A stretch of DNA of 34,224 nt from Escherichia coli (GCA_025544715.1 GCA_025544715.1_4109.4); one strand, 5' to 3'. Positions 1 through 32,894 are shown, counted from the stretch's first letter. Made by a program: numbers and translations. Notes: generated by a model not told the origin, from the sequence alone.

Positions 1-151
1 GTGCCGAGATCCGTCCAAAATTCATAAAATTTAAAAAGGATACACTCCCGCACCTTAGCAGGTCATAGCACTTTCTCAGCACTGAATCATAGTATCATAG
101 TACGCCCCAGGATGGCAAGCAAATTAATTAAAACTTTTTGCTTTTAGGCTA

Positions 152-180
152 TTGCTTTTATAATTCAGTACTGCTATAAT
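152..180 (+). promoter_or_regulatory. sigma70-like promoter candidate TTGCTT-17 bp-TATAAT with CAGTACTG box in spacer
   Basis: TTGCTT 152-157, 17-nt spacer containing CAGTACTG (166-173), TATAAT 175-180. TTGCTT also resembles a T4 MotA-box core, so class is ambiguous. Confidence 0.4.
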
Positions 181-402
181 TATTTCATCAAGTCGAGAAA
201 GACTATAGCCCACCGGGTGCATAGTTACGCCTAAAATTCAGTACTAGATTATTTTTAAAAATATTCATCCAGGCGGTTGACATTACCCCCAGTTTATTAG
301 ATAATGATTCCAGATTCAGAAAAATCTAACTCCAGATACTGCGGGGAAACCATCCCCACGCGGTAGGGGAACTATTGGAAAAAACAGAATAAAAATTTTG
401 AT

Positions 403-560
403 TTAGCCGTCTATACATCCAGACGTGTAACCATCTAGCCGTTTAGCCGTCCAAACGTCTAGCAGTACAGCCATCTAGAAATCTAGCCATCCAGCCGCCT
501 AGAGGGATAGCCATCTTTACTTCCAGCCATCTGGAGGTCTAGACATCTCTACGTCTAAAT
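403..560. repeat. iteron-like cluster of short degenerate direct repeats, CTAG-rich
   Basis: Recurring units TAGCCGTC / CCATCTAG / AGCCATC / ACGTCTA over about 160 bp; locally GC-richer than surroundings; at least 6 CTAG tetramers. Confidence 0.45.
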
Positions 561-1342
561 TTAACCTAGGGTTACTACGCCCAAAATCCGTCAGTACTAT
601 ACCATAGATCTATCTTTATGAAGAGAGTATTCAGTACTGCCATCATAGCCCTCACTATGTTACCTTGGGAGGATGAAGACTATCATGTAGTACTGAATAC
701 TGTTAGTGGATAATCCACCAGCACAAGCTGGTGGCATAATGCGTTAGATTAATATCAGTACTGCTACCATTCTGTTAATAACAGTACTGTTTATATTACG
801 AAAAAAGAGGTTGTCAAAGATGAACTGCCTCAAAGGAGGATTCAATCTAATCTGTACTGTCTCACGACAGGAGGTAGAGTGAATGAATTGTTTGCGGCAA
901 CTCATCTCTCTATGTAGAACATTATACAGTACTGAATCATAATGTCAATAGCTTTCTTTCATTTATTCAGTACTAAAATTGTATAATCTGTATCTCTACA
1001 AAACTCATTATATCCCACAAATCCTATATGTCCCAACGTAAATTTCAACTTTCGAAGATCGAACTTTTATTTCATAGGTACTCCAAAATTTTTACGATCC
1101 AGATTTAGGATGGAGTACTAACCAACTTTTTGCTGGAGCCTCAAGGGGTAATTGAAATTTTCCCCGAAGGGTAAAGAGGTAATTGAAATTAAGGTGAAAG
1201 TAATAATTCAGTACTAATCATTGCGTGATTACTTTTGATTACATTTGATGTAATTTGAAAAATGGAAAAGGAGCTTGGAAACTACAAAGTACGGCAGACT
1301 TCCTCTGCCTACTTAGTGGCATATCAGTACTGAATCCTTCCC

Positions 1343-1372
1343 GTGCATTCTTGTGCATTCTTGAGCATTCTT
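1343..1372. repeat. 3 x 10-bp tandem repeat (GTGCATTCTT, GTGCATTCTT, GAGCATTCTT)
   Basis: Direct read of three head-to-tail units. Confidence 0.6.
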
Positions 1373-1443
1373 GTCTATACTAATCAGTACTGAATCATAT
1401 ATAATCATTCTGTGATTCTACGGTGCTCATATAAATGTTTATA

Positions 1444-1472
1444 TATGATTACTTATGACTACCTATGATTAC
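1444..1472. repeat. 3 copies of TATGATTAC / TATGACTAC at 10-bp period
   Basis: Direct read; follows a TCAGTACTGAATC box. Confidence 0.5.
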
Positions 1473-1512
1473 GGGGTTTAGCCTGGGGAGAATCCTAGTG
1501 ATCGCATTTGTC

Positions 1513-1552
1513 CAGGCTGAATTTTAACATATGCAACATATGTTAAAGCCTG
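1513..1552. other. long imperfect inverted repeat (about 16 bp stem with 5-nt bulge, 3-nt loop) abutting a TATAAT
   Basis: CAGGCT-gaatt-TTAACATATG / caa / CATATGTTAAAGCCTG; TATAAT immediately follows at 1553-1558; no U-tract, so not a canonical terminator. Confidence 0.4.
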
Positions 1553-1597
1553 TATAATGCTTCCACTACGGAGCTTCCCCTGTCTATATGTGTTTAA

Positions 1598-1807
1598 TTA
1601 CTTCCTATATATAAGCATTAAGATATAGTAGTACTGATTGTACTGTACATTCTCTTTAATATTATAAGGGTCTATAGCAATCTCGGTACATTTATTAAAT
1701 TTATATCGAGTCATTAATAGAGGGATTAGAGCGTTAATCCACACTTGTTCATTCTCTTTGAGTTTACTTATATAGTACTCTTTATACTCTTTATACTCTT
1801 TATACAT
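1598..1807 (-). CDS. small tandem-paralog protein (KEYY family), 69 aa, N-terminal KEY x3 repeat
   Basis: ATG start; N-term MYKEYKEYKEYYISKL and C-term LMLIYRK fit the family; contains 3 perfect 9-bp repeats. Confidence 0.6.
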   Translation of the reverse strand: MYKEYKEYKEYYISKLKENEQVWINALIPLLMTRYKFNKCTEIAIDPYNIKENVQYNQYYYILMLIYRK

Positions 1808-1820
1808 AGTATTATCTCTA

Positions 1821-2003
1821 TTAATATGATAGTACTAGTGTTAGTACTGAGCACAATTGTTCTTTATAGTTCTTAGGGTGTATAGAATCTTTTATGCACT
1901 CATTAAAGTGCCATAGGTATAATCTTGGGTCGCATTCTTTATATATTCTTACGGGGACGAATGTTAGTTTTCGTATATAGAATTCTTTATGTTCTTTATT
2001 CAT
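1821..2003 (-). CDS. small tandem-paralog protein (KEYY family), 60 aa
   Basis: ATG start; N-term MNKEHKEFYIRKL; tandem with paralogs. Confidence 0.6.
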   Translation of the reverse strand: MNKEHKEFYIRKLTFVPVRIYKECDPRLYLWHFNECIKDSIHPKNYKEQLCSVLTLVLSY

Positions 2004-2008
2004 ATTAG

Positions 2009-2194
2009 TTAGTGTCTGTATATAAGTAATAGTAAGAATACGTACTGCACATCTTCATCTTTAGTATTGAGTACTGTACGTATTGCGTCATTAAACAAGA
2101 ATATAGTACTTGGGTCATGAAAATTTAAAGGGATTCTGGGTACGGCATGTTTGTAGTTCCCTTTAACAAATTGTGTGTAGTATTCTTTATGCAT
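2009..2194 (-). CDS. small tandem-paralog protein (KEYY family), 61 aa
   Basis: ATG start in conserved junction gtagtattctttatgcat; N-term MHKEYY, C-term LLLIYRH. Confidence 0.65.
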   Translation of the reverse strand: MHKEYYTQFVKGNYKHAVPRIPLNFHDPSTIFLFNDAIRTVLNTKDEDVQYVFLLLLIYRH

Positions 2195-2195
2195 G

Positions 2196-2381
2196 TTAGT
2201 ACCTATATATTAGTAAAAGGATGTGATACAGTACTCGATTATAGTCTTCAATATCTATCGAGGATTTAGTGCACTTAATGAAGTAGTCTTTTTCGTAGTC
2301 TTTTTCTATACCCAATGCAACGTTTGGTACAAGGTGTTGGAGATACATTGGGAGTTTCTCTATGTAGTATTCTTTATACAT
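2196..2381 (-). CDS. small tandem-paralog protein (KEYY family), 61 aa
   Basis: N-term MYKEYYIEKLP, C-term LLLIYRY; SD AAGGAT upstream. Confidence 0.65.
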   Translation of the reverse strand: MYKEYYIEKLPMYLQHLVPNVALGIEKDYEKDYFIKCTKSSIDIEDYNRVLYHILLLIYRY

Positions 2382-2390
2382 ATATTATCC

Positions 2391-2579
2391 TTAGTACTGG
2401 AACGCGAGATACAGGGTGTGGTACAGTTGTACTTGATAATTGTTTTCATTAAGTAATTGTTCAGTACATGTGCGGAAGTAATCAGCTTCGTATATACAGT
2501 TAATATCACGATGTTCATCTTCTAATAGATTGCCTTGTAGAAACTTTGGCAGGTCTTTAATGTAGAATTCTTTATGCAT
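2391..2579 (-). CDS. small tandem-paralog protein (KEYY family), 62 aa
   Basis: N-term MHKEFYIKDLP; family member. Confidence 0.65.
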   Translation of the reverse strand: MHKEFYIKDLPKFLQGNLLEDEHRDINCIYEADYFRTCTEQLLNENNYQVQLYHTLYLAFQY

Positions 2580-2588
2580 ATTATTTCC

Positions 2589-2783
2589 TTAGTACACGAA
2601 CGAGAGGTACAGAGTGTGGAATAGTACTCGATGATAGGTTGCATCTTCGTTTATGCATACGTTAGTACACATAATGAAGTACGCTTTATTGTTCACGGTG
2701 TTTAAGTCTCTAGGTTTATCTAGGAGATCTATTAGGTACTGTGGAAAATATTTTCTGTATAATTCTCTGTGTTCATTATTCAT
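2589..2783 (-). CDS. small tandem-paralog protein (KEYY family), 64 aa
   Basis: N-term MNNEHRELY; conserved Y-F-x-x-C-T core. Confidence 0.6.
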   Translation of the reverse strand: MNNEHRELYRKYFPQYLIDLLDKPRDLNTVNNKAYFIMCTNVCINEDATYHRVLFHTLYLSFVY

Positions 2784-2784
2784 A

Positions 2785-2973
2785 TTAGTACCTGTATATT
2801 AGATTTAGTACATTGTACAGGTTATACATATCATCATATTCTTCTTCTATTGTACGAAATATATGCGTGCGGTAGTATCTTGTGTTGCTCTTATCTTTAA
2901 AATTTACAGGTTCGCGGGTAATAAGCTTTTGGTAATTAATTGTAAGTTTACTTATGTAGTATTCTTTATACAT
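2785..2973 (-). CDS. small tandem-paralog protein (KEYY family), 62 aa
   Basis: N-term MYKEYYISKL, C-term LNLIYRY. Confidence 0.65.
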   Translation of the reverse strand: MYKEYYISKLTINYQKLITREPVNFKDKSNTRYYRTHIFRTIEEEYDDMYNLYNVLNLIYRY

Positions 2974-2975
2974 AA

Positions 2976-3158
2976 TTAGTACCTGTATATAAGTAGGATA
3001 ATGTTATATAGCTGGTCTAAACTGCTACTGTTTTCTATGCAGCGTTCTATACAATTTTCGAATCCAAGTACAGCCAAATCATTATCCAGTACTAATTTAT
3101 GTCGAGCGAAGTGTTCCATAATGCTGGGTAGTTTTTGTATGTAGTATTCTTTATGCAT
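2976..3158 (-). CDS. small tandem-paralog protein (KEYY family), 60 aa (start moved to internal ATG)
   Basis: Track ORF 2976..3221 begins at a non-family extension; the family start MHKEYYIQKL is the ATG at 3156-3158; C-term ILLIYRY. Confidence 0.6.
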   Translation of the reverse strand: MHKEYYIQKLPSIMEHFARHKLVLDNDLAVLGFENCIERCIENSSSLDQLYNIILLIYRY

Positions 3159-3822
3159 AGTTTGCAATATATGTAATGAGGTGATGCATTTTCTTATTAG
3201 TACTGATAAGTTCCTGTACATGTTTTGTAAGATTGTACGCGTTTTTGTACAACTCTGGATTATCGATTACAGTACTGTACATGAATAGTTCTTCTTCCTG
3301 TAGTTCTTTATGTTCTAGTTCTTTGAGGAATTCTACAATTGATTTAGTTTCTTCTGTACGTTGTGCTTGCCAGAAGTGCATATTCTCGTGTACTTTTTCT
3401 GCATCAGTAGAGTATATGCCACCCATTTGGAATTGTGCTGTATTGACATCGTGGGAGGTGTTACAATTCCCGAAGAAGTATGTATTCCCGAAGTATAGCA
3501 TTAAAGTGCACGGGGTATTATCCAACTGCATATTGATGATGAAGGATGCGTTCTTTAGTACCTTCGTGCTCGTATTAGTACTCAATACTTTTAAATCAGT
3601 ATTATAGATATTCATATAATGAACAGCTATATTATTTTTCTTCATGTACAATCCCAGGTTCTTTGATACGTTAACTCCATTTGTACTGTTTTTTTTACTT
3701 TTCTTTAGGTTCTTTAGTACATTAGGGTGATACGTATATGCAGATGTAACTGATTCTGCCTGAATACTGTTGAGATACTTAAAGTGCTTAAGGTATTGTT
3801 TGCTGTGTGCATTAAGTTTCAT
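3151..3822 (-). CDS. hypothetical protein, 223 aa, unrelated insert within the small-protein array
   Basis: ATG start with SD AAGGAA; no family termini; Asn/Lys-rich N-half, acidic helical C-half. Confidence 0.6.
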   Translation of the reverse strand: MKLNAHSKQYLKHFKYLNSIQAESVTSAYTYHPNVLKNLKKSKKNSTNGVNVSKNLGLYMKKNNIAVHYMNIYNTDLKVLSTNTSTKVLKNASFIINMQLDNTPCTLMLYFGNTYFFGNCNTSHDVNTAQFQMGGIYSTDAEKVHENMHFWQAQRTEETKSIVEFLKELEHKELQEEELFMYSTVIDNPELYKNAYNLTKHVQELISTNKKMHHLITYIANYA

Positions 3823-3832
3823 TTGGTTTCCT

Positions 3833-4012
3833 TTATATAGATGCCAAGGCGAGGATTTCCCTGTAGGGATTATCTTGTGTTAGTACAGCATAAATGCAGC
3901 TATTGAGATTAATATTTTTAGTACTTTTTGTTCCTAGGTTGTAGTAATCAACGAATGTGTCGTACATGAAACGGTCTTTTATGGTTATACGTTCTATATA
4001 GAATTGGTTCAT
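3833..4012 (-). CDS. small tandem-paralog protein, 59 aa (below track length cutoff)
   Basis: Hand-translated: MNQFYIERITIKDRFMYDTFVDYYNLGTKSTKNINLNSCIYAVLTQDNPYREILALASI; fills the gap between array members. Confidence 0.45.
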   Translation of the reverse strand: MNQFYIERITIKDRFMYDTFVDYYNLGTKSTKNINLNSCIYAVLTQDNPYREILALASI

Positions 4013-4020
4013 AGTATTCC

Positions 4021-4203
4021 TTATATAGAGATTAGTTTCATTACTTCTCTGTATGTGTACTTTTCGTTTTGTGCATCTCTTGTGACGACATATAGGAAGG
4101 TGTGTTTATCTTTTTTGTTCCCGCAATTGTAGAAAATATTGAACTTATTGAAGTTGAATCTTTCGGCGTGTTGTAGTTTAGTTAAATAGAATTCTATGTT
4201 CAT
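4021..4203 (-). CDS. small tandem-paralog protein, 60 aa
   Basis: ATG start; MNIEFYLTKLQ; similar to neighbour 4212..4397 (C-term TYREVMKLISI vs TYRAVLKLIEM). Confidence 0.6.
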   Translation of the reverse strand: MNIEFYLTKLQHAERFNFNKFNIFYNCGNKKDKHTFLYVVTRDAQNEKYTYREVMKLISI

Positions 4204-4211
4204 TTTCTTCC

Positions 4212-4397
4212 TTACATTTCAATAAGTTTCAGTACTGCTCGGTACGTGTACTTAGTTGTTAGTGCTTCTTTAATAGAAATGCAGAAGTAATGTTGTTTGT
4301 CTCTTATACTGCCGCGTTTGTAGTACCACACATGGGAGTTGTGACTGTACTTGTCTCTGTCGGATAGTTGTTGGTAGTAGTAGCTTATATGATTCAT
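4212..4397 (-). CDS. small tandem-paralog protein, 61 aa
   Basis: ATG start; paralog of 4021..4203. Confidence 0.6.
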   Translation of the reverse strand: MNHISYYYQQLSDRDKYSHNSHVWYYKRGSIRDKQHYFCISIKEALTTKYTYRAVLKLIEM

Positions 4398-4444
4398 TGT
4401 AATTAGCCTTACTATGTTAAAGTACTCGGTCCCTGGTGTACCTT

Positions 4445-4639
4445 TTAGAACTTAAAGATGAGGTTCAGGATAGAGCGGTACTTAGTTGCAGGGAACGTAT
4501 GTTCTATTGCATAACGTGTCACCATCCTGAAATCGTAATTATAATACAGATTATCCTTTCTCATAGGTGGTGCTAAAGAGAATGATAGCTGTTCTTGTTT
4601 GGGTAGTTTACTACAATAGAAATCTTTATGATTATTCAT
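4445..4639 (-). CDS. small tandem-paralog protein, 64 aa
   Basis: ATG start; N-term MNNHKDFYCSKLP, C-term LNLIFKF. Confidence 0.6.
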   Translation of the reverse strand: MNNHKDFYCSKLPKQEQLSFSLAPPMRKDNLYYNYDFRMVTRYAIEHTFPATKYRSILNLIFKF

Positions 4640-4841
4640 AGAAATATATTAGTCCTATTAAACCTGAGTACATAATATTTTTGTTATTACATTCGATTGC
4701 TTCTATAGTACTACGTATACAATTATTAAAGCAATCTCTGGCGTGTGGTGTATCTATACTTAAAGGTGATACACTCCTTAGAAACAATTGTTCTTCGTTG
4801 CTAAGGTATTTGGTGTAGAATTCTTTATGTTCAGTATTCAT
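4632..4841 (-). CDS. small tandem-paralog protein, 69 aa
   Basis: ATG start; N-term MNTEHKEFYTKYL; 8-nt overlap with downstream gene. Confidence 0.6.
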   Translation of the reverse strand: MNTEHKEFYTKYLSNEEQLFLRSVSPLSIDTPHARDCFNNCIRSTIEAIECNNKNIMYSGLIGLIYFYE

Positions 4842-4842
4842 A

Positions 4843-5052
4843 TTAGTACTCGATTAATAGTGTTAAGATGAAATAGTACTGCATAGACTCGTTACCTTCA
4901 AGGAAATTCCTTATGAGGTTATTTCTGACTGAGTTAAGCAGAAGTGCCGAACGTTTTGCATTTGCAAGTATAATTTGTTGATGCTCTATGCTATTCTGTT
5001 CACCTTTTGACAGAGCACATAGGTAGTACTGCATAATTTGTTCTTGGGTCAT
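4843..5052 (-). CDS. small protein, 69 aa, divergent array member
   Basis: ATG start overlapping upstream stop; weaker family resemblance. Confidence 0.5.
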   Translation of the reverse strand: MTQEQIMQYYLCALSKGEQNSIEHQQIILANAKRSALLLNSVRNNLIRNFLEGNESMQYYFILTLLIEY

Positions 5053-5294
5053 ATAGATGCCAGTACTAAAAGGTTAATGAATCGTTTACTTTCATCAGGG
5101 TTTTGAAGTCCCTCAAAGATGTCCTCTATAAAGCAATTCAACATAAGTGCACTTGTTGGGGTAGTACTTTTTTTGAGGGTATTGATTGCACAGAATTTTG
5201 AAAGGAAGAATGCGAAATCTTCTGCGTTCATGTAGCTCATATAGTTCTTAGTACTTTGGCTAAGTGCTTGGTAGTGATCTATTACATTGTTCAT
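5049..5294 (-). CDS. small protein, 81 aa, first gene of the minus-strand array
   Basis: ATG with SD AAGGAG 6 nt upstream; directly downstream of the consensus promoter at 5318-5346. Confidence 0.6.
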   Translation of the reverse strand: MNNVIDHYQALSQSTKNYMSYMNAEDFAFFLSKFCAINTLKKSTTPTSALMLNCFIEDIFEGLQNPDESKRFINLLVLASI

Positions 5295-5317
5295 GAAATT
5301 CTCCTTATATTTTTTAT

Positions 5318-5346
5318 ATTATAAATGAGTCCAGAAAGGATGTCAA
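5318..5346 (-). promoter_or_regulatory. consensus sigma70 promoter TTGACA-17-TATAAT for the small-protein array
   Basis: Minus-strand read: TTGACA (plus 5341-5346), 17-nt spacer, TATAAT (plus 5318-5323), then SD and ATG of 5049..5294. Confidence 0.65.
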
Positions 5347-5359
5347 GGGTTTTCTTTTT

Positions 5360-5395
5360 GTGGTAAATATGATATAACAAATAAAGGAGGGATTT
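5360..5395 (+). promoter_or_regulatory. conserved 5' cassette of leader-family gene 1 (-10-like TATAAC, SD AAGGAGG)
   Basis: AAATATGATATAACAAATAAAGGAGGGATTTATG aligns with the cassette upstream of the other family genes; -35 unclear. Confidence 0.35.
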
Positions 5396-6598
5396 ATGTT
5401 ACCTTTTGGAAGAATGATTAAGTACGCAAATATTGCACCAGGTCCAGAACCTGTAGAGTTCTCAGATGTTTTACAACAACATTATACAAACTGTATGTAT
5501 CTACATAACCCAACTAATACTTTATATGGTTATGGTAGTAATAACATGTATCAATTTGGTCTTGGGAATTCAGCAGCAGTTTCGTCATTTACAGTACTTG
5601 CAAGGAACTGTGCAGCCTTTTGGCTTGGTGTTCAAGGTTCATTGATGATTGATTTGGATAATAAAATATACTACACTGGGTCGGTTGGTGCATTTTCTGA
5701 TTATGGAGATGCAACACCTGTTAATGGTTATTTGACAACATGGACTGATGTTACTGTTGCATTTAATAAAATAGGTGTTATGGCTAATATGATCAAGAGT
5801 GTATATATAGGTGAAAGTACTAGAATATTATTAACCGATGGTAGAGTAATTGCGTGTGGAAGAAATACCAATGGTGAATGTGGCTCTGGTAATAAAAATT
5901 CCATCCCTACACTCACAGTTATGACTAATATGGGTGAAGTTACACATATGGCATGTTCATTACAAGGAACGCACTATATCAAATCAAATAAAGATGCATG
6001 GTTTTGTGGTAAGGATAACTTTGGTGAAAGTGGATGTGGTGGTAGTTCTGTTGTATATTTGAACAAATTCGTGATTAGTAATGTAGAACATATTAGTACT
6101 ACATACGATGTTACATGGTGGTTTACTACTGGTGGGCCTGTATATTATAGCGGGGCTAACAGTACTGGACAAGCGGGTAATGGTACGACTACATCGGTAA
6201 ATCAGCTAACACCAATTAGGAACACATCGGTCACGGTTGATGTAAGTAAGTACAGTACTTTTATTTGTCCAAGTAATATGGGAAATGCATCAATTGGTGC
6301 ACCTATGGCACAATACGCACCATATGTTAGAAGTAGTGGTGCTAACTCATATGGTCAAGAAGGTAATGGAACTAATACATTAGTTAGAACTTGGAATATT
6401 TTTAATCTTAGTGCAATAAGTGGTGGTTATGAAAATGTTCTTATGGCATCTAAAGATTGGAGCAGAACCATAATAATTACTAAAGATTATAAATTATATG
6501 CATGTGGTGGCTGGAATGGAAATGGTGGTAGATTGCCAGATGGCACTTATAGTATTACTACACTAACATTAATGCCAACGCAGTTATGGCAACAATAG
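5396..6598 (+). CDS. leader-tagged RCC1-like beta-propeller protein, 400 aa
   Basis: ATG after AAGGAGG; N-term MLPFGRMIKYAN; repeated GxNxxG(Q/E)xGxG motifs (NGECGSGN, GQAGNGT, GQEGNGT); S/T/N/G/Y-rich. Confidence 0.8.
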   Translation: MLPFGRMIKYANIAPGPEPVEFSDVLQQHYTNCMYLHNPTNTLYGYGSNNMYQFGLGNSAAVSSFTVLARNCAAFWLGVQGSLMIDLDNKIYYTGSVGAFSDYGDATPVNGYLTTWTDVTVAFNKIGVMANMIKSVYIGESTRILLTDGRVIACGRNTNGECGSGNKNSIPTLTVMTNMGEVTHMACSLQGTHYIKSNKDAWFCGKDNFGESGCGGSSVVYLNKFVISNVEHISTTYDVTWWFTTGGPVYYSGANSTGQAGNGTTTSVNQLTPIRNTSVTVDVSKYSTFICPSNMGNASIGAPMAQYAPYVRSSGANSYGQEGNGTNTLVRTWNIFNLSAISGGYENVLMASKDWSRTIIITKDYKLYACGGWNGNGGRLPDGTYSITTLTLMPTQLWQQ

Positions 6599-6606
6599 GA
6601 GGGAAT

Positions 6607-7716
6607 ATGTTACCTTTTGGAAGAATAATTAGGTATGGAAATATTGTCCCTGGTCCTAAAAAAATAATTAAAGTTGGTGCTTCTACCCAAGGCCAATTCT
6701 TATTGACTGATTCACATGATTTATATTACATAGGTAGAAATCAAGGTGGTGAATCTGGAAATGGTAATACCAACACGGTGTCTTCGTGGACATTAGTAAG
6801 TGCAGATGTTTCTAATTTTTTCGTGGGTGATCGTACACTTGTTATTATTAAAAATGATAATACGATATGGACATCAGGTCAAACGTACTGGTTCTCATCT
6901 TCTACAACTACTTCTTACAGTACTGTATTAGTTGAAAGAACTAATTGGTTTACCAATGCTATACCAGTAAGTGAAATTGCTAATATTGTATGTACAAATG
7001 GTTTAATATTTGTACTTAGCACTAATTCAGTACTCTATGGTGCAGGAGATAATGGATATCGTGGTTCTTTGGGTATTGGTTCATCATCAATTTACACATT
7101 AACTCAATGTGCTACGAACGTTCGTAAAGTAATGACCAATGCGAATGATAGTATGTATCTTACATTAGATAATAAGCTATATAGTTCTGGATGGAATAGT
7201 AGTGGGCAGCATGGTACGGGGAACCAAACACAAATTAACACTTGGGGATTGCGTAGTTCTGGTGTAATCGATGCAGCCATTGGTGGTAATGCATTAAATT
7301 ACTATAATGGTACATCATATTTCGTATGTGGTCAAACTCCAAACTTTCTTAGTTCAGGTACGACTACATTCCGTGCAGTTCCTTTAAGTACTTTGCCTAA
7401 TAGTTCTCCGTTGTTTATGACGAATTCACCTGCCTTAAATACTGCTACACAAATGGTAATTACCAGTACATATCAGAAGGGTGTTGGGGCGAACCGTGGT
7501 TTGGGATTAAACAATTCTCAAACTGGTGCTATATATAGTGCTACCAATTTACAATTACCCGTTGAAGTTAGTGAGATTAGGGATGTTCTTTTTAGTGATG
7601 GTTTGACATCGATATTAACCAAAAATGGAGATGTGTATAGTACTGGATCGTATTACGCCATTCCAGGTGCAATCGAGGATGTTGCAGTCTTTACTAAAAT
7701 TGATTTACCAAAATAA
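6607..7716 (+). CDS. leader-tagged RCC1-like beta-propeller protein, 369 aa
   Basis: Track ORF starts upstream; family start MLPFGRIIRYGN is ATG 6607 with SD AGGAGGG overlapping upstream stop; motifs GGESGNGN, GQHGTGN. Confidence 0.8.
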   Translation: MLPFGRIIRYGNIVPGPKKIIKVGASTQGQFLLTDSHDLYYIGRNQGGESGNGNTNTVSSWTLVSADVSNFFVGDRTLVIIKNDNTIWTSGQTYWFSSSTTTSYSTVLVERTNWFTNAIPVSEIANIVCTNGLIFVLSTNSVLYGAGDNGYRGSLGIGSSSIYTLTQCATNVRKVMTNANDSMYLTLDNKLYSSGWNSSGQHGTGNQTQINTWGLRSSGVIDAAIGGNALNYYNGTSYFVCGQTPNFLSSGTTTFRAVPLSTLPNSSPLFMTNSPALNTATQMVITSTYQKGVGANRGLGLNNSQTGAIYSATNLQLPVEVSEIRDVLFSDGLTSILTKNGDVYSTGSYYAIPGAIEDVAVFTKIDLPK

Positions 7717-7722
7717 CATAAT

Positions 7723-7747
7723 GCCAGTACAGAGTACTGGCTTTCTT
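7723..7747 (+). terminator. intrinsic terminator (GCCAGTAC-aga-GTACTGGC plus T-tract)
   Basis: Perfect 8-bp stem, 3-nt loop, followed by TTTCTTATTT; just after the stop at 7714-7716. Confidence 0.65.
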
Positions 7748-7787
7748 ATTTGTATTAAATATAGTATAATGAATAAAGGAGGAATTT
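7748..7787 (+). promoter_or_regulatory. conserved 5' cassette (TATAAT -10-like element, SD AAAGGAGG)
   Basis: TTGTATTAAATATAGTATAATGAATAAAGGAGG repeated almost identically upstream of four other family genes; -35 poorly matched. Confidence 0.4.
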
Positions 7788-17143: not shown

Positions 17144-17490
17144 CATTCCTCCGGTATCTTGTTTCGAAGGTCAATCATAACACAACAAAGTTTAATGATC
17201 AAGTGAAAAAATACACATATCATACCAATTGTTCCATAAACGACTGAAAAAGCAGGTAGTGCTTTTCCGGCTAGAACAGCCACAATACATGCAATCAATG
17301 TTGATGCAAACAACGATTGATTAATGAAAGAATTCATAAAATCTTTACCATTACGCTTATAGAATTGTCGTTTAAAATACCATCCTAGAAACATAACCAC
17401 CCAAAATGTTACATAACCTGTTAGAATAATCCCTGCAAGTGAATGTGCAACTGGACTACTCCTTAAAAACTCAATATAAGCTTCAAACAT
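17143..17490 (-). CDS. paralogous small membrane protein (tandem array), 115 aa
   Basis: ATG; C-term DLRNKIPEE. Confidence 0.65.
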   Translation of the reverse strand: MFEAYIEFLRSSPVAHSLAGIILTGYVTFWVVMFLGWYFKRQFYKRNGKDFMNSFINQSLFASTLIACIVAVLAGKALPAFSVVYGTIGMICVFFHLIIKLCCVMIDLRNKIPEE

Positions 17491-17828
17491 TAGAAGTCTC
17501 CGCGAATTTTATCTCTACCATGAATAATGAGATGGATTAAGTATACACCTAACCAAATGAACAACCCAAAGAATACAATATATTGCGAGATTGAGTTCAA
17601 GTGAGGATTAGCACAATAAATTAAGTGTGCCATAAGACCAACAATTGCAAACAAACCTTGAACAAGTGTGTAAAGAACTAGTGATGAATTCCTCACTGGA
17701 TACAGTTTAAAAACAATTTTCTTTTTAAAATACCACAGTACTACAACCAGTGCATGATAAAAGAAAAAACCAAAAAGATAAATCAAAGTAATACTAAGCA
17801 TTGTATCTGACTTAAAGAATGTTAACAT
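17490..17828 (-). CDS. paralogous small membrane protein (tandem array), 112 aa
   Basis: N-term MLTFFKSDTMLSITLIYLF; near-duplicate of 17828..18169. Confidence 0.7.
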   Translation of the reverse strand: MLTFFKSDTMLSITLIYLFGFFFYHALVVVLWYFKKKIVFKLYPVRNSSLVLYTLVQGLFAIVGLMAHLIYCANPHLNSISQYIVFFGLFIWLGVYLIHLIIHGRDKIRGDF

Positions 17829-18169
17829 TAGAATTCCCCTTTAATTCTATCACGAGCTTTAATAATAAAGTACATGCTACACACCAACAACCACACGATT
17901 AGACCTGAAAAAACAAGATATTGTGTAATGTGTGGTGTATTATCAATTTGTAACATGTAAATCGCATATATCATCACACCAAATAAAATAAACCCACCTT
18001 GGATAATACTATATAAAACTAAGACTACATTATCATACGAATACAATTTAAAAACAATTTTCCTTTTAAAATACCACAGACTAATTACAATTGAATGATA
18101 ACACAAAAATACAAACATGTAAATTAGCGTGATACCAAGCATTGTATCTGAATTAAAAAACTCAAGCAT
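17828..18169 (-). CDS. paralogous small membrane protein (tandem array), 113 aa
   Basis: N-term MLEFFNSDTMLGITLIYMF; C-term KARDRIKGEF; SD GGAGA. Confidence 0.7.
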   Translation of the reverse strand: MLEFFNSDTMLGITLIYMFVFLCYHSIVISLWYFKRKIVFKLYSYDNVVLVLYSIIQGGFILFGVMIYAIYMLQIDNTPHITQYLVFSGLIVWLLVCSMYFIIKARDRIKGEF

Positions 18170-23876: not shown

Positions 23877-23904
23877 ATTATACAGTACTGAATGTGTTTG
23901 TCAA
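23877..23904 (-). promoter_or_regulatory. sigma70-like promoter TTGACA-16-TATAAT with CAGTACTG box abutting the -10
   Basis: Minus-strand read: TTGACA (plus 23899-23904), 16-nt spacer ending in CAGTACTG, TATAAT (plus 23877-23882); hairpin GGGATGA..TCATCCC follows at about 23848-23868. Confidence 0.55.
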
Positions 23905-24895: not shown

Positions 24896-25237
24896 TCAAC
24901 GCTCCGGTAGATTATCACGTAATGTTTTAATTCGATTATACATTTTCATACCAATATTACCAAAGATACCATATCCAAGTACTAAAATGTATGCAATAAG
25001 CATAGTAATAATTACTATAGTACCAAAACTATAATGTACACTACTGATACCCATTGTAGTTTCAACGATTATTTGAGAAACTGAAAGAATCAAAAGTACA
25101 ACTACAATTGGATGATTTGGGTACATTCGGTTGAACAACGTTTTGTACTTAAAGAAGCACAGTACTCCACCGAATAAGAAGTAAACAATGTAAATGCAAG
25201 CAACAGCATAGGCAAACATGTTAGTGTAATAAATCAT
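24896..25237 (-). CDS. paralogous small membrane protein (second array), about 113 aa (start moved to internal ATG)
   Basis: Track start TTG; ATG two codons in with SD AAGGA; C-term TLRDNLPER. Confidence 0.6.
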   Translation of the reverse strand: MIYYTNMFAYAVACIYIVYFLFGGVLCFFKYKTLFNRMYPNHPIVVVLLILSVSQIIVETTMGISSVHYSFGTIVIITMLIAYILVLGYGIFGNIGMKMYNRIKTLRDNLPER

Positions 25238-25246
25238 TACCAATCC

Positions 25247-25585
25247 TTACTTTTCAGGGATATTAGAACGCCATATATCAATGCGATGAACTAGTCCAAA
25301 GAACAACCATACTGGAACGGCAGCTATCATAACAACAAATGAAAACCCAGTCAAGACCGATACCAGATTTAATTCATCAGTACTATACCCACATATCAGT
25401 ACTTCTAATATTCCCCACGTACATGCACAAAACATCAAGAATGAAATGGGGGCATCATAGTAGATACGTTCATATAAAGTAGTGTATCGGAAGAATGCAA
25501 TAATGTAGCAAAACATATAATACACCCAAACCAAAGATACTACATAAAATGATACTTTGTTTATTAATTCAAAATATTGTTCCAT
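25247..25585 (-). CDS. paralogous small membrane protein (second array), 112 aa
   Basis: ATG; C-term IWRSNIPEK. Confidence 0.65.
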   Translation of the reverse strand: MEQYFELINKVSFYVVSLVWVYYMFCYIIAFFRYTTLYERIYYDAPISFLMFCACTWGILEVLICGYSTDELNLVSVLTGFSFVVMIAAVPVWLFFGLVHRIDIWRSNIPEK

Positions 25586-25873: not shown

Positions 25874-26287
25874 TTATCCTTTTACACAATTTGACATAAT
25901 GTAAACACGTTTAATAAAAGAACTTTCATACACGTACTTCAACTTGCCATTCTCACGTAAGCGGTGGAAAACATCACCTTTGTTGGTACTCCACGTGGAA
26001 CCAGTACTGACATCTACATTAGCCATTGACCCACTGGTTACATTAATACCATACTTAAAACTAAAAGTTTCTCCGTCTTCAACTAATGTCACAGGCGTGC
26101 TACGTTCATATTCAAATACAAGTTTAGAACCAATCATCTCATATGATTTCAATTTACACTTCATTACACCCATTTCATCTTGAGTGGGTAGATTTCTTTC
26201 AAATATATCAGAAACTTCGTTTGCAGAAGCAAATGAACTCATGGTCATTAATACAATACCAGTTACAATTAAAATAATATTTTTCAT
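25874..26287 (-). CDS. secreted protein (signal peptide), 137 aa; paralog of 27056..27475
   Basis: N-term MKNIILIVTGIVLMTMSSFASA; shared motifs FSFKYG, LKYVYES, C-terminal NC(V)K. Confidence 0.65.
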   Translation of the reverse strand: MKNIILIVTGIVLMTMSSFASANEVSDIFERNLPTQDEMGVMKCKLKSYEMIGSKLVFEYERSTPVTLVEDGETFSFKYGINVTSGSMANVDVSTGSTWSTNKGDVFHRLRENGKLKYVYESSFIKRVYIMSNCVKG

Positions 26288-26344
26288 GATAGGTTTATCT
26301 CTTTGTTTACGGTTTATTAAGAATACATCAGAACATCAGTTCTG

Positions 26345-26986
26345 TCAATAAAAAACTGGATCTTCTTCAGTAATTGGTATTTCTCTACGCACATCACACG
26401 AAAGAGGATCAGTAATGAATACATTCCCATCTTTATCCATCATTACATTACTTGAATGAATGTCTGGTACAAATCGCCCGTGAAACTCTTTCATGATGTT
26501 AGCTGCGACCGTTGCAATTGCAATCTCTTCAGAATTTCCACGCATATCATTCACTGAAGTTGCGTACTGACCAGCATGTGCATACGAATACAAATCACCA
26601 ATTTTAGTACTAACAAAGTCATCATAATTATTTTTTTGTTTAATTATAGGATAGTACTTGTCCATCTCATACCATCCAAAGTTTCCTTGTTCGTTGGCAC
26701 TGTAGATCACTGGAAGAAACTTGGTTCCTGCGTTTTCAATGCAGTACTTTGCATAAGCACGAAAACCATCCCAGCGGGAAGTGGTTACTTTAAATGCACG
26801 TCCAGGATAGTTTTTATGTTCAACTACTACAGAGTACATCCCCATTCCAAGCAAAGTAAGTCCAGCAGCTTTAACTTGTGGAAAGATTACGCGTTCAGCA
26901 TAAGGAATATCAAACTCCATCGCACAACGAGTTTTTGATGGACGCAAAATGTCAATTAAAGTTTTGAATATTTCTTGCTTAGTCAT
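26345..26986 (-). CDS. protein-kinase-like protein, about 213 aa (start moved to internal ATG)
   Basis: Track start ATGATG lies inside the promoter -10; ATG 26984-26986 has SD AGAGGAT; motifs LLGMGMYSVV, AFKV, PDIHSSNVMMDKDGNVFITDP. Confidence 0.55.
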   Translation of the reverse strand: MTKQEIFKTLIDILRPSKTRCAMEFDIPYAERVIFPQVKAAGLTLLGMGMYSVVVEHKNYPGRAFKVTTSRWDGFRAYAKYCIENAGTKFLPVIYSANEQGNFGWYEMDKYYPIIKQKNNYDDFVSTKIGDLYSYAHAGQYATSVNDMRGNSEEIAIATVAANIMKEFHGRFVPDIHSSNVMMDKDGNVFITDPLSCDVRREIPITEEDPVFY

Positions 26987-27014
26987 TACTTTATCCTCTG
27001 TAGTTAATATCAAC

Positions 27015-27047
27015 ATCATAACAAAAAAGGCTGACCGAAGTCAACCC
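27015..27047 (-). terminator. bifunctional terminator/promoter cassette (copy 4; -10 TATGAT)
   Basis: AAAAAAGGCTGACCGAAGTCAACCCTTTT; TTGACT in hairpin, TATGAT about 18 nt downstream. Confidence 0.65.
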
Positions 27048-27055
27048 TTTTATTA

Positions 27056-27475
27056 TCATTTACAGTTTTCTATAACTATTGCACGTTTTAGTATTTTACT
27101 TTCATAAACATACTTAAGATGACCTTCTTCACGAATACGATTGAACACATATCCTAGTTTATCTTTTAGTACTGAAGCCGTATCAATGTCAAGATTAACT
27201 TCAACCCCTCCTGTTAATTTAACTTTATATGTAAAGCTAAAAGCATCCCCAGATTCAACCAATGGGACTACTTGTTCATACGTATTCAACATAACTCGTT
27301 CATCATTAACTAAATTATATATTACAATATCACAAGTTTTTACCCCAATTTCCTCTAAGGTAGGAGCATTGTCTACTATAACATCTTTTACTGTATTAGC
27401 AACCTGTTTAGCATCTGCTGCATATACATTAAAACTAAAAAGTACTAAAATAATACTTAAAAAAATCTTTTTCAT
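27056..27475 (-). CDS. secreted protein (signal peptide), 139 aa; paralog of 25874..26287
   Basis: N-term MKKIFLSIILVLFSFNVYA; SD AAGGAT. Confidence 0.65.
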   Translation of the reverse strand: MKKIFLSIILVLFSFNVYAADAKQVANTVKDVIVDNAPTLEEIGVKTCDIVIYNLVNDERVMLNTYEQVVPLVESGDAFSFTYKVKLTGGVEVNLDIDTASVLKDKLGYVFNRIREEGHLKYVYESKILKRAIVIENCK

Positions 27476-28064: not shown

Positions 28065-28105
28065 TGTAATCCTCTTCTTAATTCCTCTTTTGTATTTACA
28101 AAAAA

Positions 28106-28125
28106 AGGCTGACCGAAGTCAACCT
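28106..28125 (-). terminator. terminator/promoter cassette (copy 5), hairpin core
   Basis: AGGCTGACCGAAGTCAACCTT; the downstream -10 is less clear (TAAATA-like). Confidence 0.55.
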
Positions 28126-28134
28126 TTAGTTTTA

Positions 28135-29412: not shown

Positions 29413-29435
29413 TTTTTCTCTATGTCTATATTTAT

Positions 29436-29469
29436 AGTATAAAGAAAAGGCTGACCGAAGTCAACCTTA
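29436..29469 (-). terminator. bifunctional terminator/promoter cassette (copy 6; -10 TATACT)
   Basis: AAGGCTGACCGAAGTCAACCTT; TTGACT-17-TATACT. Confidence 0.6.
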
Positions 29470-29474
29470 TTTTG

Positions 29475-29588
29475 TTACTTAGATTGTTCTAGTGCAGGTG
29501 GATTTACTTTTTGATCCACTACATAGAATACACCACCAACCAGTACTGCGGCGATGAGTGCAGCAACTACAAATTTCAAACCTTGCAT
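29475..29588 (-). CDS. 37-aa single-helix membrane micro-protein, own transcription unit
   Basis: Hand-translated MQGLKFVVAALIAAVLVGGVFYVVDQKVNPPALEQSK; bracketed by cassette copies 6 and 7. Confidence 0.4.
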   Translation of the reverse strand: MQGLKFVVAALIAAVLVGGVFYVVDQKVNPPALEQSK

Positions 29589-29617
29589 ATATGATACCTC
29601 AGATATATTGAGAAGTT

Positions 29618-29650
29618 ATGATACAACAAAGGGCTGACCTTAGTCAACCC
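29618..29650 (-). terminator. bifunctional terminator/promoter cassette (copy 7, loop UAAG; -10 TATCAT)
   Basis: GGGCTGACCTTAGTCAACCC immediately after the stop of 29658..30041; TTGACT-18-TATCAT. Confidence 0.6.
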
Positions 29651-29657
29651 CTTTTTA

Positions 29658-30041
29658 TTACTTCTTGAACTTATGTTTTTCACTTTCGATTGCATTCACG
29701 ATTTCATCATGAATTTTACGAAGATTGTGAGTTTTCTTGAGAGAATCATGCAATGCACGGAATGCAGAGTGTACTGTTGCTTTAAAGTGCTCTTTAGGAG
29801 TTACTTTAAGTTTCTCGATAATATCACGTACATAGATTGGGTGATCCTCAAACACACGATTAAGCTCATGACCTAGTGATTCTAGGCTAAATGCTTTTTC
29901 ACGGGATGGACGATCATGTGCAAGACTTTGGTCTGGTTTTAGAAGACCTAGTGAATCTAGATACTTGTGCTTATGTGCATTGTCTAGACCAGAAATATCA
30001 ACATCATGGGATGGATCTTTCTTATTCCATTTATCAACCAT
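29658..30041 (-). CDS. hypothetical protein, 127 aa; shares domain with 28135..29412
   Basis: ATG with SD GGAG; motifs YLDSLGLL and EKLKVTPKEHFKA; TATAAATA-like sequence about 35 nt upstream. Confidence 0.65.
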   Translation of the reverse strand: MVDKWNKKDPSHDVDISGLDNAHKHKYLDSLGLLKPDQSLAHDRPSREKAFSLESLGHELNRVFEDHPIYVRDIIEKLKVTPKEHFKATVHSAFRALHDSLKKTHNLRKIHDEIVNAIESEKHKFKK

Positions 30042-32860: not shown

Positions 32861-32894
32861 ATTATAACAAAAAAGGCTGACCGAAGTCAACCTT
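32861..32894 (-). terminator. bifunctional terminator/promoter cassette (copy 8; -10 TATAAT)
   Basis: AAAAAAGGCTGACCGAAGTCAACCTTTG; stop codon of the upstream gene lies inside the 3' arm. Confidence 0.65.

What the first reader, a model, noticed from the sequence alone, without database searches (positions are those of the whole stretch)
1598..5294. Tandem array of about 15 paralogous small proteins with conserved termini and variable cores
Fifteen back-to-back minus-strand genes of 59-81 aa share an N-terminus (M-x-KE-Y/F-Y-I-x-KL), a central Y-F-x-x-C-T/I motif and a C-terminus (L-L-I-Y-R-Y/H/K), with divergent sequence between. Gene junctions are near-identical (gtagtattctttatacat) and often overlap (ATGA / 8-nt overlaps), suggesting translational coupling. 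The array is driven by a perfect TTGACA-17-TATAAT promoter, so it is probably very early. Diversified small early proteins are typical of host-takeover or anti-defence functions, but no function can be read from the sequence.
Basis: partly seen in the sequence, partly recalled or inferred. Interest (0 to 1): 0.75.

Follow-up and report, generated by a model that had tools for sequence, protein, structure and literature searches.

The report
Tandem small-protein gene family, jumbo coliphage
A giant E. coli phage carries one operon of about fifteen related genes for 60-residue helical proteins with a shared buried core and variable surfaces; the family is real and confined to this phage genus, but its suspected role in host takeover or anti-defence is untested.

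Summary
The window is part of an Asteriusvirus jumbo coliphage (PBECO4/121Q/phAPEC6 group). Ten ORFs form a robust core family (phrog_11711, function unknown). Four more join it by profile-profile comparison. The first ORF, m01, is unproven. The genes are real coding genes: orthologues in 9 phages stay open, with pN/pS 0.36. AlphaFold gives a confident four-helix mini-domain (pLDDT 92.7). It has no meaningful match in PDB, BFVD, Pfam or PADLOC. An exhaustive profile search of 1.84 billion proteins found only 29 clusters, all look-alikes. A consensus sigma-70 promoter precedes the array, genes are 8 nt overlapped to 13 nt apart (one 47-nt gap), and no internal terminator was found. The array ends about 285 bp before the boundary of the 21-kb terminal repeat. 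Copy number (14-21) and gene order differ among relatives, and breakpoints fall at the gene junctions. The best reading is an early operon of diversified small binders for host takeover or anti-defence. Timing and function are inferred, not shown. It is a new member of a known kind and moderately interesting.

The parts
5318..5346 (-). Sigma-70-type promoter TTGACA-17-TATAAT in front of the array
   Evidence: 12/12 consensus match. The -35 TTGACA and its position are conserved in all 9 relatives. Their -10 is TACTAT, TACAAT or TAGAAT, and six of them carry CAGTACTG in the spacer, which the window lacks.
5295..5317 (-). Short leader with AAGGAG Shine-Dalgarno
   Evidence: Sequence read directly.
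5049..5294 (-). m01, 81 aa; first gene; uncertain or very divergent member
   Evidence: Not significant against family profiles. Weak N-terminal (DHYQAL) and C-terminal (LLVLASI) resemblance to m02 and m07. Orthologues only in JNE01 and Turkey5.
4843..5052 (-). m02, 69 aa; B/T/V subfamily; ATGA overlap with m01
   Evidence: 14.5 bits against the core HMM with 0/500 shuffles as good. Subfamily profile against core: hhalign 89.5%, E 2e-6.
4632..4841 (-). m03, 69 aa; core family
   Evidence: Leave-one-out HMM 38.4 bits; phrog_11711 E 7e-14.
4445..4639 (-). m04, 64 aa; core family; 8-nt overlap with m03
   Evidence: Leave-one-out HMM 35.5 bits; phrog_11711 E 1.4e-25.
4212..4397 (-). m05, 61 aa; basic E/F/G subfamily
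   Evidence: phmmer E 1e-10 to m06. Subfamily profile against core: hhalign 91.5%, E 8.5e-7, full-length collinear.
4021..4203 (-). m06, 60 aa; E/F/G subfamily
3833..4012 (-). m07, 59 aa; E/F/G subfamily
3151..3822 (-). m08, 223 aa; unrelated conserved gene embedded in the array (phrog_29152, function unknown)
   Evidence: No match to the family HMM. phrog_29152 E 1e-147. Homologues at 65% identity or more only in Asteriusvirus-like contigs. AlphaFold model poor, pLDDT 44.6. An annotated gene of about 220 aa sits at the same place in the arrays of the relatives.
2976..3158 (-). m09, 60 aa; core family; 8-nt overlap with m08. The longer ORF from 3221 is probably not used.
   Evidence: Leave-one-out HMM 41.6 bits. 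Three of five distinct orthologue sequences are 180 nt.
2785..2973 (-). m10, 62 aa; core family
   Evidence: Leave-one-out HMM 34.8 bits.
2589..2783 (-). m11, 64 aa; core family
   Evidence: phmmer E 1e-11 to m12.
2391..2579 (-). m12, 62 aa; core family
   Evidence: Leave-one-out HMM 46.0 bits; phrog_11711 E 3e-24.
2196..2381 (-). m13, 61 aa; core family; the member modelled by AlphaFold
   Evidence: Leave-one-out HMM 55.3 bits. AlphaFold pLDDT 92.7, pTM 0.77, helices 3-8, 12-15, 28-43, 47-60.
2009..2194 (-). m14, 61 aa; core family
   Evidence: Leave-one-out HMM 40.5 bits.
1821..2003 (-). m15, 60 aa; core family
   Evidence: Leave-one-out HMM 30.9 bits.
1598..1807 (-). m16, 69 aa; core family; N-terminal KEY triplication; last gene
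   Evidence: Leave-one-out HMM 20.8 bits.
1313..1597 (-). Gene-free, strongly structured tail between the last gene and the terminal-repeat boundary; contains a near-invariant block of about 100 bp (1433-1529)
   Evidence: RNA fold z = -5.4 for 1280-1600. Block nearly invariant in 9 phages, with little covariation.
1293..1313 (-). Position equivalent to the physical genome end (start of the direct terminal repeat), with hairpin GGCAGAGGAAGTCTGCC
   Evidence: Base 1 of fEgEco12 (termini set by PhageTerm and restriction digests, PMC13070987) aligns to window 1313. The only terminator-like hairpins in 1-6000 are here.

Best explanation
The region is a single operon of a jumbo coliphage. It encodes a genus-restricted multigene family of four-helix proteins of about 60 residues.

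Shown:
- The genes are real and under purifying selection.
- Fourteen of the fifteen small ORFs share one scaffold. Its conserved residues are almost all hydrophobic or aromatic and lie on one face of the helices. The long loop and the remaining helix positions are hypervariable.
- A consensus host-type promoter precedes the array, genes are packed tightly, and no internal terminator was found.
- The array sits at the end of the unique genome segment, about 285 bp from the terminal repeat.
- Copy number and order change between close relatives, and breakpoints fall at the gene junctions.

Inferred:
- Host RNA polymerase transcribes the array as one early polycistronic mRNA soon after DNA entry.
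- Translation is coupled from gene to gene. Shine-Dalgarno sequences lie right after the stop codon (TAAGGA) or inside the penultimate AGG Arg codon of the upstream gene.
- Each paralogue uses its own variable surface to bind a different host, host-defence or competitor target, that is, host takeover or counter-defence.
- The array expands, contracts and reshuffles by homologous recombination between the similar 3'/5' gene ends.
For: Family and coding status:
- Leave-one-out HMMs score 16-55 bits against shuffle maxima of 6-20.
- Profile-profile links between subfamilies: 91.5% and 89.5%.
- Orthologues in 9 genomes stay open, with pN/pS 0.36 overall and 0.27 / 0.44 / 0.29 for N-terminus / core / C-terminus.

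Scaffold:
- AlphaFold pLDDT 92.7.
- Column entropy is below 2 bits at positions 4-6, 10, 34, 38, 42, 51, 54, 55, 57, 58 and 61. All but E4 and T/I38 are at least 80% hydrophobic. C37 (2.6 bits, Cys in 53%) completes the central motif. Entropy is 3-3.8 bits at most positions in 12-33, 35-36, 39-40 and 43-50.
- Paralogue pI ranges from 4.9 to 9.6.

Operon:
- Promoter is a 12/12 match and its -35 is conserved in 9 relatives.
- Junction gaps run from -8 to +13 nt, with SD-like AAGGA or AGGT.
- No terminator-like site lies inside the array.

Timing and non-structural role (indirect):
- Ten further promoters matching 11-12 of 12, all on the gene strand, populate the neighbouring 20 kb.
- In the related phage CBB, RpoD-like promoters and short hypothetical ORFs upstream of the terminal repeat were proposed as the early host-takeover region (PMC5259590).
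- PA5oct needs host RNA polymerase and transcribes small terminal-repeat genes early (PMC7318152).
- None of phAPEC6 gp540c-548c is among its 62 virion proteins found by mass spectrometry (PMC7247149).

Dynamics:
- Nine genomes hold 14-21 HMM-detected members, in different orders.
- Synteny blocks end within about 45 nt of gene starts and overlap at the junctions.
- One clear chimera exists: P0002 has an m13-type body and an m11/m12-type tail, switching at RVLYH.
Against: - No transcript, protein or phenotype data exist for any member.
- Orthologue pN/pS is below 1 even in the variable core (0.44). There is no signal of ongoing diversifying selection, as an arms-race target might show.
- The perfect -10 is peculiar to this window; relatives have weaker -10 boxes.
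- The array lies outside the terminal repeat, and it is not known which genome end enters first.
- Breakpoints at gene boundaries could also reflect selection for intact genes rather than junction-mediated recombination.
Confidence: 0.5

Rival explanations
1. The proteins act in conflicts between phages, or in superinfection exclusion, rather than against the host's own machinery or defences. Early small proteins would block entry or development of competing phages.
For: The same evidence that supports an early, non-structural, diversified family. Nothing discriminates between the two target classes.
Against: No membrane-spanning segment or signal peptide is evident: GRAVY is -0.9 to 0.0 and the proteins are about 60 aa and all-helical. 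Many exclusion proteins are membrane-associated (own knowledge).
Confidence: 0.12
2. The proteins serve the phage's own programme. They would be small regulators or DNA/RNA-binding adaptors, for example acting on the hyper-abundant AGTACT sites or on the transcription apparatus, with paralogues tuned to different sites.
For: AGTACT is about 10-fold over-represented in the window and lies in the spacers of consensus promoters, including the array promoter of six relatives. Some paralogues are basic, pI 9.4-9.6.
Confidence: 0.1
3. The family is a largely dispensable product of tandem amplification: a hyperplastic region with little individual function per copy.
For: Copy number and order vary among close relatives. 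The region is mosaic, with only 48-77% covered by megablast in the relatives listed. The family is restricted to one genus.
Against: Each orthologue group is kept open and under purifying selection across phages (pN/pS 0.36). Paralogues are old, at 10-40% identity, rather than recent copies. Several groups (B, D, E, F, G, J, M, O) are present in all seven PBECO4/121Q-type genomes compared.
Confidence: 0.1
4. They are capsid-targeted internal proteins, injected with the DNA like T4 IPI-III. The conserved N-terminus would be the capsid-targeting sequence.
For: A conserved short N-terminus with a variable body in a hypervariable locus recalls the T4 ip genes (own knowledge). The neighbouring RCC1-like proteins are virion-associated in phAPEC6.
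Against: None of gp540c-548c is among the 62 virion proteins of phAPEC6, although a 4.7-kDa protein was detected. There is no conserved (L/I)-x-E protease site after the N-terminal motif. The N-terminal helix is part of the predicted fold. The promoter is the host sigma-70 type, not the late type.
Confidence: 0.05
5. The ORFs are spurious, and the conserved 'termini' are a repeated non-coding DNA or RNA element.
For: Five junctions share an 18-mer within 2 mismatches. Several GenBank records leave most of these ORFs unannotated.
Against: All ORFs stay open in 9 genomes, with pN/pS 0.36 and synonymous changes at the termini as frequent as elsewhere. The AlphaFold model is confident. The hydrophobic periodicity fits a protein core.
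Confidence: 0.02

Closest known systems
phrog_11711 (PHROGs v4 family of unknown function); GenBank 'hypothetical proteins' such as 121Q gp250-265 and phAPEC6 gp540c-547c
   Same: Same proteins. m03, m04, m12 and m13 match the 62-position profile end to end (E 7e-14 to 1e-25). The same array is annotated gene by gene in 121Q, E9.1, A4 and fEgEco12.
   Different: The PHROG covers only the core subfamily: m01, m02 and m06 do not match it. No function, structure or description of the array was found in the literature searched.
Early host-takeover gene clusters next to or inside terminal repeats of large virulent phages (Bacillus phage SPO1 gp37-60 module and T5 pre-early genes, from own knowledge; proposed early regions of CBB and PA5oct)
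   Same: Many small proteins of unknown function behind strong host-type promoters, next to a long direct terminal repeat.
   Different: Those clusters are mostly unrelated genes, not one paralogous family. This array lies just outside the repeat (only one match per fEgEco12 record). Early timing is untested here.
PeSL-mediated modular shuffling in hyperplastic regions of T4-type phages (PMC2839356, PMC4122927)
   Same: Gain, loss and reordering of small early ORFs between close relatives by recombination at short repeated sequences that flank each ORF. PeSL-like hairpin-promoter motifs occur elsewhere in the window.
   Different: No promoter-terminator stem-loops lie between the array genes. 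The repeated sequence is the coding 3' and 5' ends of the paralogues themselves.
Lineage-specific expansions of small proteins in jumbo phages (for example about 35 zinc-ribbon copies in Bacillus phage G; PMC7824862) and poxvirus gene 'accordions' (own knowledge)
   Same: Many copies of one small domain within one viral genome; copy number varies.
   Different: There is no zinc-binding or other recognisable domain, and the fold has no significant structural neighbour. Paralogues are ancient (10-40% identity), not recent amplifications.

Membership tests
phrog_11711 | Significant full-length match to the family profile HMM | tested here: met
   m03, m04, m12 and m13 match at E 7e-14 to 1e-25 over positions 1-62 of 62. 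m01, m02 and m06 have no hit at E <= 1. The other members were not scanned against PHROGs but match the core HMM.
Single superfamily comprising all 15 small ORFs | Each ORF significantly related to a profile built without it and its close relatives | tested here: inconclusive
   Met for 14 ORFs. Not met for m01: 4.9-6.6 bits, 13-35 of 1000 shuffles as good, hhalign probability below 3%.
Early host-takeover cluster (SPO1 / T5 / CBB type) | Strong host sigma-70-type promoter(s) driving the cluster | tested here: met
   TTGACA-17-TATAAT at 5346..5318. The -35 is conserved in 9 relatives.
Early host-takeover cluster (SPO1 / T5 / CBB type) | Location in or beside the terminal redundancy | tested here: met
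   The last stop codon is at 1598 and the fEgEco12 terminus maps to 1313. The array is adjacent to the repeat but outside it.
Early host-takeover cluster (SPO1 / T5 / CBB type) | Expression in the first minutes of infection and shut-off or redirection of host functions | not testable with these tools
   No Asteriusvirus transcriptome or functional screen was found.
PeSL cassette shuffling (T4-type) | Composite early-promoter/terminator stem-loop flanking each mobile ORF | tested here: not met
   No terminator-like hairpin and no strong promoter lie inside 1598-5294. Breakpoints do fall at junctions, so the resemblance is in mechanism only.
T4-type internal proteins (IPI-III) | Presence in the virion | tested here: not met
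   Absent from the phAPEC6 virion mass-spectrometry list, which includes gp549, gp551 and a 4.7-kDa protein (PMC7247149). This is indirect, because it comes from another phage of the genus.
T4-type internal proteins (IPI-III) | N-terminal capsid-targeting sequence ending in a conserved (L/I)-x-E prohead-protease site | tested here: not met
   No conserved Glu two residues after a Leu/Ile follows the KE(Y/F)Y motif: positions 7-9 have entropy 2.7-3.1 bits.
Known anti-phage defence components or known structural families | HMM or fold match | tested here: not met
Known anti-defence proteins (Acr, Ocr/Ard-type mimics and others) | Homology to a characterised inhibitor, or demonstrated inhibition of a defence system | not testable with these tools
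   No anti-defence HMM library is available here, and no experimental data exist.

The most novel reading that the evidence does not exclude
The array is an evolvable library of mini-binders. A fixed four-helix scaffold presents a hypervariable loop and surface. The conserved gene ends serve at once as structural core, as ribosome-binding or coupling signal for the next gene, and as homology for cassette-style recombination. Asteriusviruses could thereby reshuffle, duplicate and hybridise inhibitors of different host defence systems. This would be a coding-sequence-embedded analogue of PeSL or integron cassette exchange, built on a fold with no known relative.
Probability: 0.15. Interest if true: 0.7.

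Novelty: new member of a known kind. Interest (0 to 1): 0.42.

Why it matters
If these proteins are early inhibitors, one operon supplies 14-21 ready-made small binders on a new, confidently predicted scaffold. Each is a candidate probe or inhibitor of an E. coli process or defence system, in phages already being considered for therapy. The array also offers a tractable natural case of how a phage gene family grows and reshuffles through homology built into the genes themselves. On present evidence, however, it is an uncharacterised genus-specific family of the sort common in jumbo phages. It is already deposited as 'hypothetical proteins' and clustered as a PHROG.

Tried and rejected
- Pfam, PHROGs, PADLOC and a PDB-sequence profile search gave no functional lead.
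- The word-indexed search of 5.8 billion proteins and the exhaustive profile search of 1.84 billion representatives found only look-alikes of 44-90 aa, so no distant annotated relative exists.
- A structure prediction of the embedded 223-aa protein was tried as guilt by association, but the model was too poor to use (pLDDT 44.6).
- Diversifying selection in the variable core was tested and not found (pN/pS 0.44).
- A systematic screen for mosaic members found nothing at strict thresholds. A relaxed screen gave one clear chimera, P0002.
- tRNA and Rfam scans of the window were negative.
- The consensus fold of the conserved tail downstream of the array showed almost no covariation, so an RNA structure is not established.
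- The idea that GTAC enrichment was a junction-specific signal was rejected. AGTACT is enriched across the genome, and the array's TAC/CTA/GTA codon bias reflects an A+C-rich coding strand.
- Literature searches found no description of the array, no Asteriusvirus transcriptome and no functional screen.


Full report
**Context.** Megablast of window 1400-5500 finds 36 phage records. All are jumbo coliphages or Salmonella phages of the PBECO4/121Q/phAPEC6 group (genus Asteriusvirus). The best rows are 94-97% identical, but the 30 listed rows cover only 48-77% of the query, so the region is mosaic among close relatives. The rest of the window fits this picture. Eight RCC1-like paralogues lie on the plus strand (5396-14704), and many small minus-strand genes follow.

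**Check of the observation.** The minus strand from 5294 to 1598 is filled by 16 ORFs.
- Fifteen are small (59-81 aa).
Orthologues of this member are mostly 180 nt long, so the likely start is the ATG at 3158 (MHKEYYIQKL).
- The perfect TTGACA-17-TATAAT is confirmed at 5346..5318.
- Junctions are tight but less uniform than described. There is one ATGA overlap and two 8-nt overlaps. Eleven gaps are 1-13 nt and one is 47 nt.
- The 18-mer ATGTATAAAGAATACTAC occurs within two mismatches at 5 of 15 gene starts, against 0.2 matches expected by chance.

**Is it one family?**
- Within the window alone, ten ORFs (m03, m04, m09-m16) are robustly related. Leave-one-out HMM scores are 16-55 bits against shuffle maxima of 6-20. 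The four tested match phrog_11711 end to end.
- m05-m07 form a tight trio. m02 is weakly linked, and m01 is not linked.
- I then collected 151 members from the window and eight related genomes by iterated HMM search. With these, profile-profile comparison joins the m05-07 subfamily to the core (hhalign probability 91.5%, E 8.5e-7, collinear over 53 columns). It also joins the m02 subfamily to the core (89.5%, E 2e-6).
- m01 remains unsupported, with 13-35 of 1000 shuffles scoring as well. It does show N- and C-terminal resemblance to m02 and m07.
- In total, 14 of 15 small ORFs belong to one superfamily and one is undecided.

**Are they genes?**
- Every member has intact orthologues in other phages. 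Pooled pairwise Nei-Gojobori counts give pS 0.136 and pN 0.049, a ratio of 0.36.
- Split by region, pN/pS is 0.27 for the first 12 codons, 0.44 for the middle and 0.29 for the last 14 codons. Synonymous divergence at the termini (0.22 and 0.12) is not lower than in the middle (0.125).
- The conserved termini are therefore conserved as protein, not as a DNA element.

**Protein.**
- AlphaFold2 on m13, with a 69-sequence alignment, gives pLDDT 92.7 and pTM 0.77, with helices at 3-8, 12-15, 28-43 and 47-60.
- In 118 non-redundant members, the low-entropy columns are E4, Y/F5, Y6 (invariant), L10, F34, T/I38, L/I42, Y/L51, I54, L55, L57 (95%), I58 and Y61. C37 (Cys in 53%) completes the central motif. 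All but E4 and T/I38 are at least 80% hydrophobic or aromatic, and they are spaced as one face of each helix.
- Most positions in 12-33, 35-36, 39-40 and 43-50, plus 53, 56 and 60, carry 3-3.8 bits of entropy.
- Paralogue pI spans 4.9-9.6. This is the pattern of a fixed scaffold with a variable surface.

**Relatives.**
- Pfam, PADLOC and a PDB sequence-profile search return nothing meaningful.
- tblastn with m13 hits only the 36 Asteriusvirus records.
- A word-indexed search of 5.8 billion proteins gives 58 hits. An exhaustive HMMER profile search of 1.84 billion representatives gives 29. All hits are 44-90 aa proteins with the same motifs.
- A weak hit traced to its contig lies in the same kind of array, followed by the same gap of about 2 kb without called genes.
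- The family is therefore confined to this phage lineage.

**Operon anatomy.**
- The promoter lies 23 nt upstream of m01, whose leader carries AAGGAG.
- No terminator-like hairpin and no strong promoter lie inside the array. The only terminator-like hairpins in 1-6000 are at 1312..1293.
- Where the gap is 8-10 nt, the stop codon is followed by AAGGA. Where it is 1-2 nt, the upstream gene ends ...AGG-TAC-TAA, which places AGGT 8-11 nt before the next ATG. Part of the C-terminal 'RY' conservation may thus double as a ribosome-binding site. Coupling is inferred from spacing only.
- In nine relatives the -35 TTGACA and its position are invariant. The -10 is TACTAT, TACAAT or TAGAAT, and six of the nine carry CAGTACTG in the spacer, which the window lacks.

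**Position in the genome.**
- The termini of fEgEco12 were determined by PhageTerm and restriction digests, giving a 20,993-bp direct terminal repeat (PMC13070987).
- Its base 1, which equals the start of the right repeat at 353,741, aligns to window 1313. The figure from vB_Ec-M-J agrees within about 10 bp.
- The array is therefore the last coding block of the unique genome segment. It is transcribed toward the repeat and ends 285 bp before it.
- The neighbouring 20 kb carries ten further promoters matching 11-12 of 12 positions, all on the gene strand.
- In the related phage CBB, RpoD-like promoters and short hypothetical ORFs just upstream of the terminal repeat were proposed as the early host-takeover region (PMC5259590).
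- PA5oct needs host RNA polymerase and transcribes its small repeat-region genes early (PMC7318152).
- In phAPEC6, the RCC1-like gp549 and gp551 are virion proteins, but none of the array proteins gp540c-548c is (PMC7247149).
- Together these points make an early, non-structural role likely, but they do not demonstrate it.

**Dynamics.**
- HMM-detected members number 14-21 in nine genomes. At 60% identity they fall into 41 groups.
- The upstream half (B C D E F G, then the 223-aa gene) is fairly stable. The downstream half is reordered and differs in content. For example, the window has H I J K L M N O where PBECO4 has K L H J P M R S N O. E9.1 and BF17 have extra F-type copies.
- Megablast blocks between the window and its relatives mostly end within about 45 nt of gene starts, and adjacent blocks overlap at the junctions.
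- One database protein (P0002) has an m13-type body and an m11/m12-type tail, switching at the conserved RVLYH.
- This fits unequal homologous recombination between the similar gene ends. Selection for intact genes could produce the same boundary pattern.

**Mechanism and rivals.** The best-supported account is an early polycistronic operon. It makes a set of small scaffolded binders, each kept by purifying selection for its own target and acting in host takeover or counter-defence. The genetics and the structure are shown; the timing and the target class are inferred. Rivals, in decreasing order of plausibility:
- inter-phage exclusion, which cannot be distinguished from the main account;
- phage-internal regulators, perhaps tied to the abundant AGTACT motif, although no nucleic-acid-binding fold was found;
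- a largely dispensable amplified family, which purifying selection and the age of the paralogues argue against;
- injected internal proteins, which the virion mass spectrometry, the lack of a protease site and the promoter type argue against;
- spurious ORFs, which are refuted.

**Comparison and novelty.** The proteins are already in databases as hypothetical proteins and as phrog_11711. I found no paper describing the array. In kind it resembles early small-gene clusters beside terminal repeats (SPO1, T5, CBB) and lineage-specific expansions in jumbo phages (PMC7824862). Its turnover works like PeSL-mediated shuffling (PMC2839356), but without PeSL elements. I rate it a new member of a known kind. 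Its noteworthy particulars are a fold without neighbours, gene ends that may serve three purposes, and a position abutting the genome terminus.

Noticed in passing
whole window; densest at 1-1400; also L001-L012: The palindrome AGTACT, usually as (C)AGTACTG or ATTCAGTACTGAAT, is hugely over-represented. AGTACTG occurs 110 times against 5.3 +/- 2.5 expected, and AGTACT 122 times against about 12 expected. It is found in all three reading frames within genes. It is enriched 15-27-fold in the related loci around the array and about 6-fold in a distant structural region of 121Q. It sits in the spacer of perfect sigma-70 promoters (948..921 and 23904..23877) and in the array promoter of six relatives. 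No explanation was found (operator, nucleoid-protein site or modification target?).
   Followed up: partly
window 790-948 (minus strand): An orphan perfect promoter, TTGACA-16-TATAAT, has no ORF downstream. It is conserved, with its downstream sequence, in all relatives examined. The predicted transcript forms a long hairpin of about 95 nt (z = -3.5) followed by a U-run. It is a candidate highly expressed small RNA at the start of the terminal repeat. A convergent conserved promoter lies on the other strand in relatives. Rfam has no match.
   Followed up: partly
window 1293-1400: The physical genome end of fEgEco12 maps to about 1313, three bases before the hairpin GGCAGAGGAAGTCTGCC. Just inside the unique side are three 10-bp direct repeats (AAGAATGCNC, 1338-1377) bracketed by two ATTCAGTACTGAT motifs. 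This is a plausible terminase recognition or cutting region.
   Followed up: partly
window 1433-1529: A block of about 100 bp between the array and the terminal-repeat boundary is nearly invariant in nine phages whose flanking array genes differ greatly. The surrounding 320 nt fold strongly (z = -5.4), but there is almost no covariation. It could be a protein-binding or packaging signal rather than an RNA.
   Followed up: partly
window 402-545: A run of at least 12 degenerate 8-bp units (TCTAGCCG / TCCAGCCA type) lies in the gene-free start of the terminal repeat.
   Followed up: no
window 32872-32895, 29447-29468, 28104-28127 (minus strand): Three copies of a hairpin, AAAGGTTGACTTCGGTCAGCCTTT, are each followed by a T-run. 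In the first two copies the scan pairs the TTGACT in the stem with a -10 box (TATAAT, TATACT). These are composite terminator-promoter motifs like the PeSLs of T4-type phages.
   Followed up: no
window 5396-14704 (plus strand): Eight tandem RCC1-like paralogues are transcribed divergently from the small-protein array. Two homologues are virion proteins in phAPEC6. Other paralogue pairs lie at 17490-18169, 24896-25585, 25874-27475 and 28135-30041.
   Followed up: partly
window 1598-5294: Codon usage in the array differs from other genes of the window. Tyr TAC:TAT is 72:44 against 75:187 elsewhere, Leu CTA is 31% against 9%, and Val GTA is 64% against 42%. This reflects an A+C-rich coding strand, and GC skew and AT skew shift in this region.
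   Followed up: partly
L002 (PBECO4), L003 (phAPEC6), L005 (BF17): Several GenBank records annotate only a minority of the array genes. For example, PBECO4 has 5 small genes annotated where the HMM finds 16. Gene counts for this genus are therefore underestimates.
   Followed up: no
P0081, P0083, P0092; P0017: Proteins of this region are recorded by NCBI under 'Escherichia coli' on contigs of 354-359 kb. Whole Asteriusvirus genomes are evidently present in some E. coli assemblies (carrier state or contamination).
   Followed up: no
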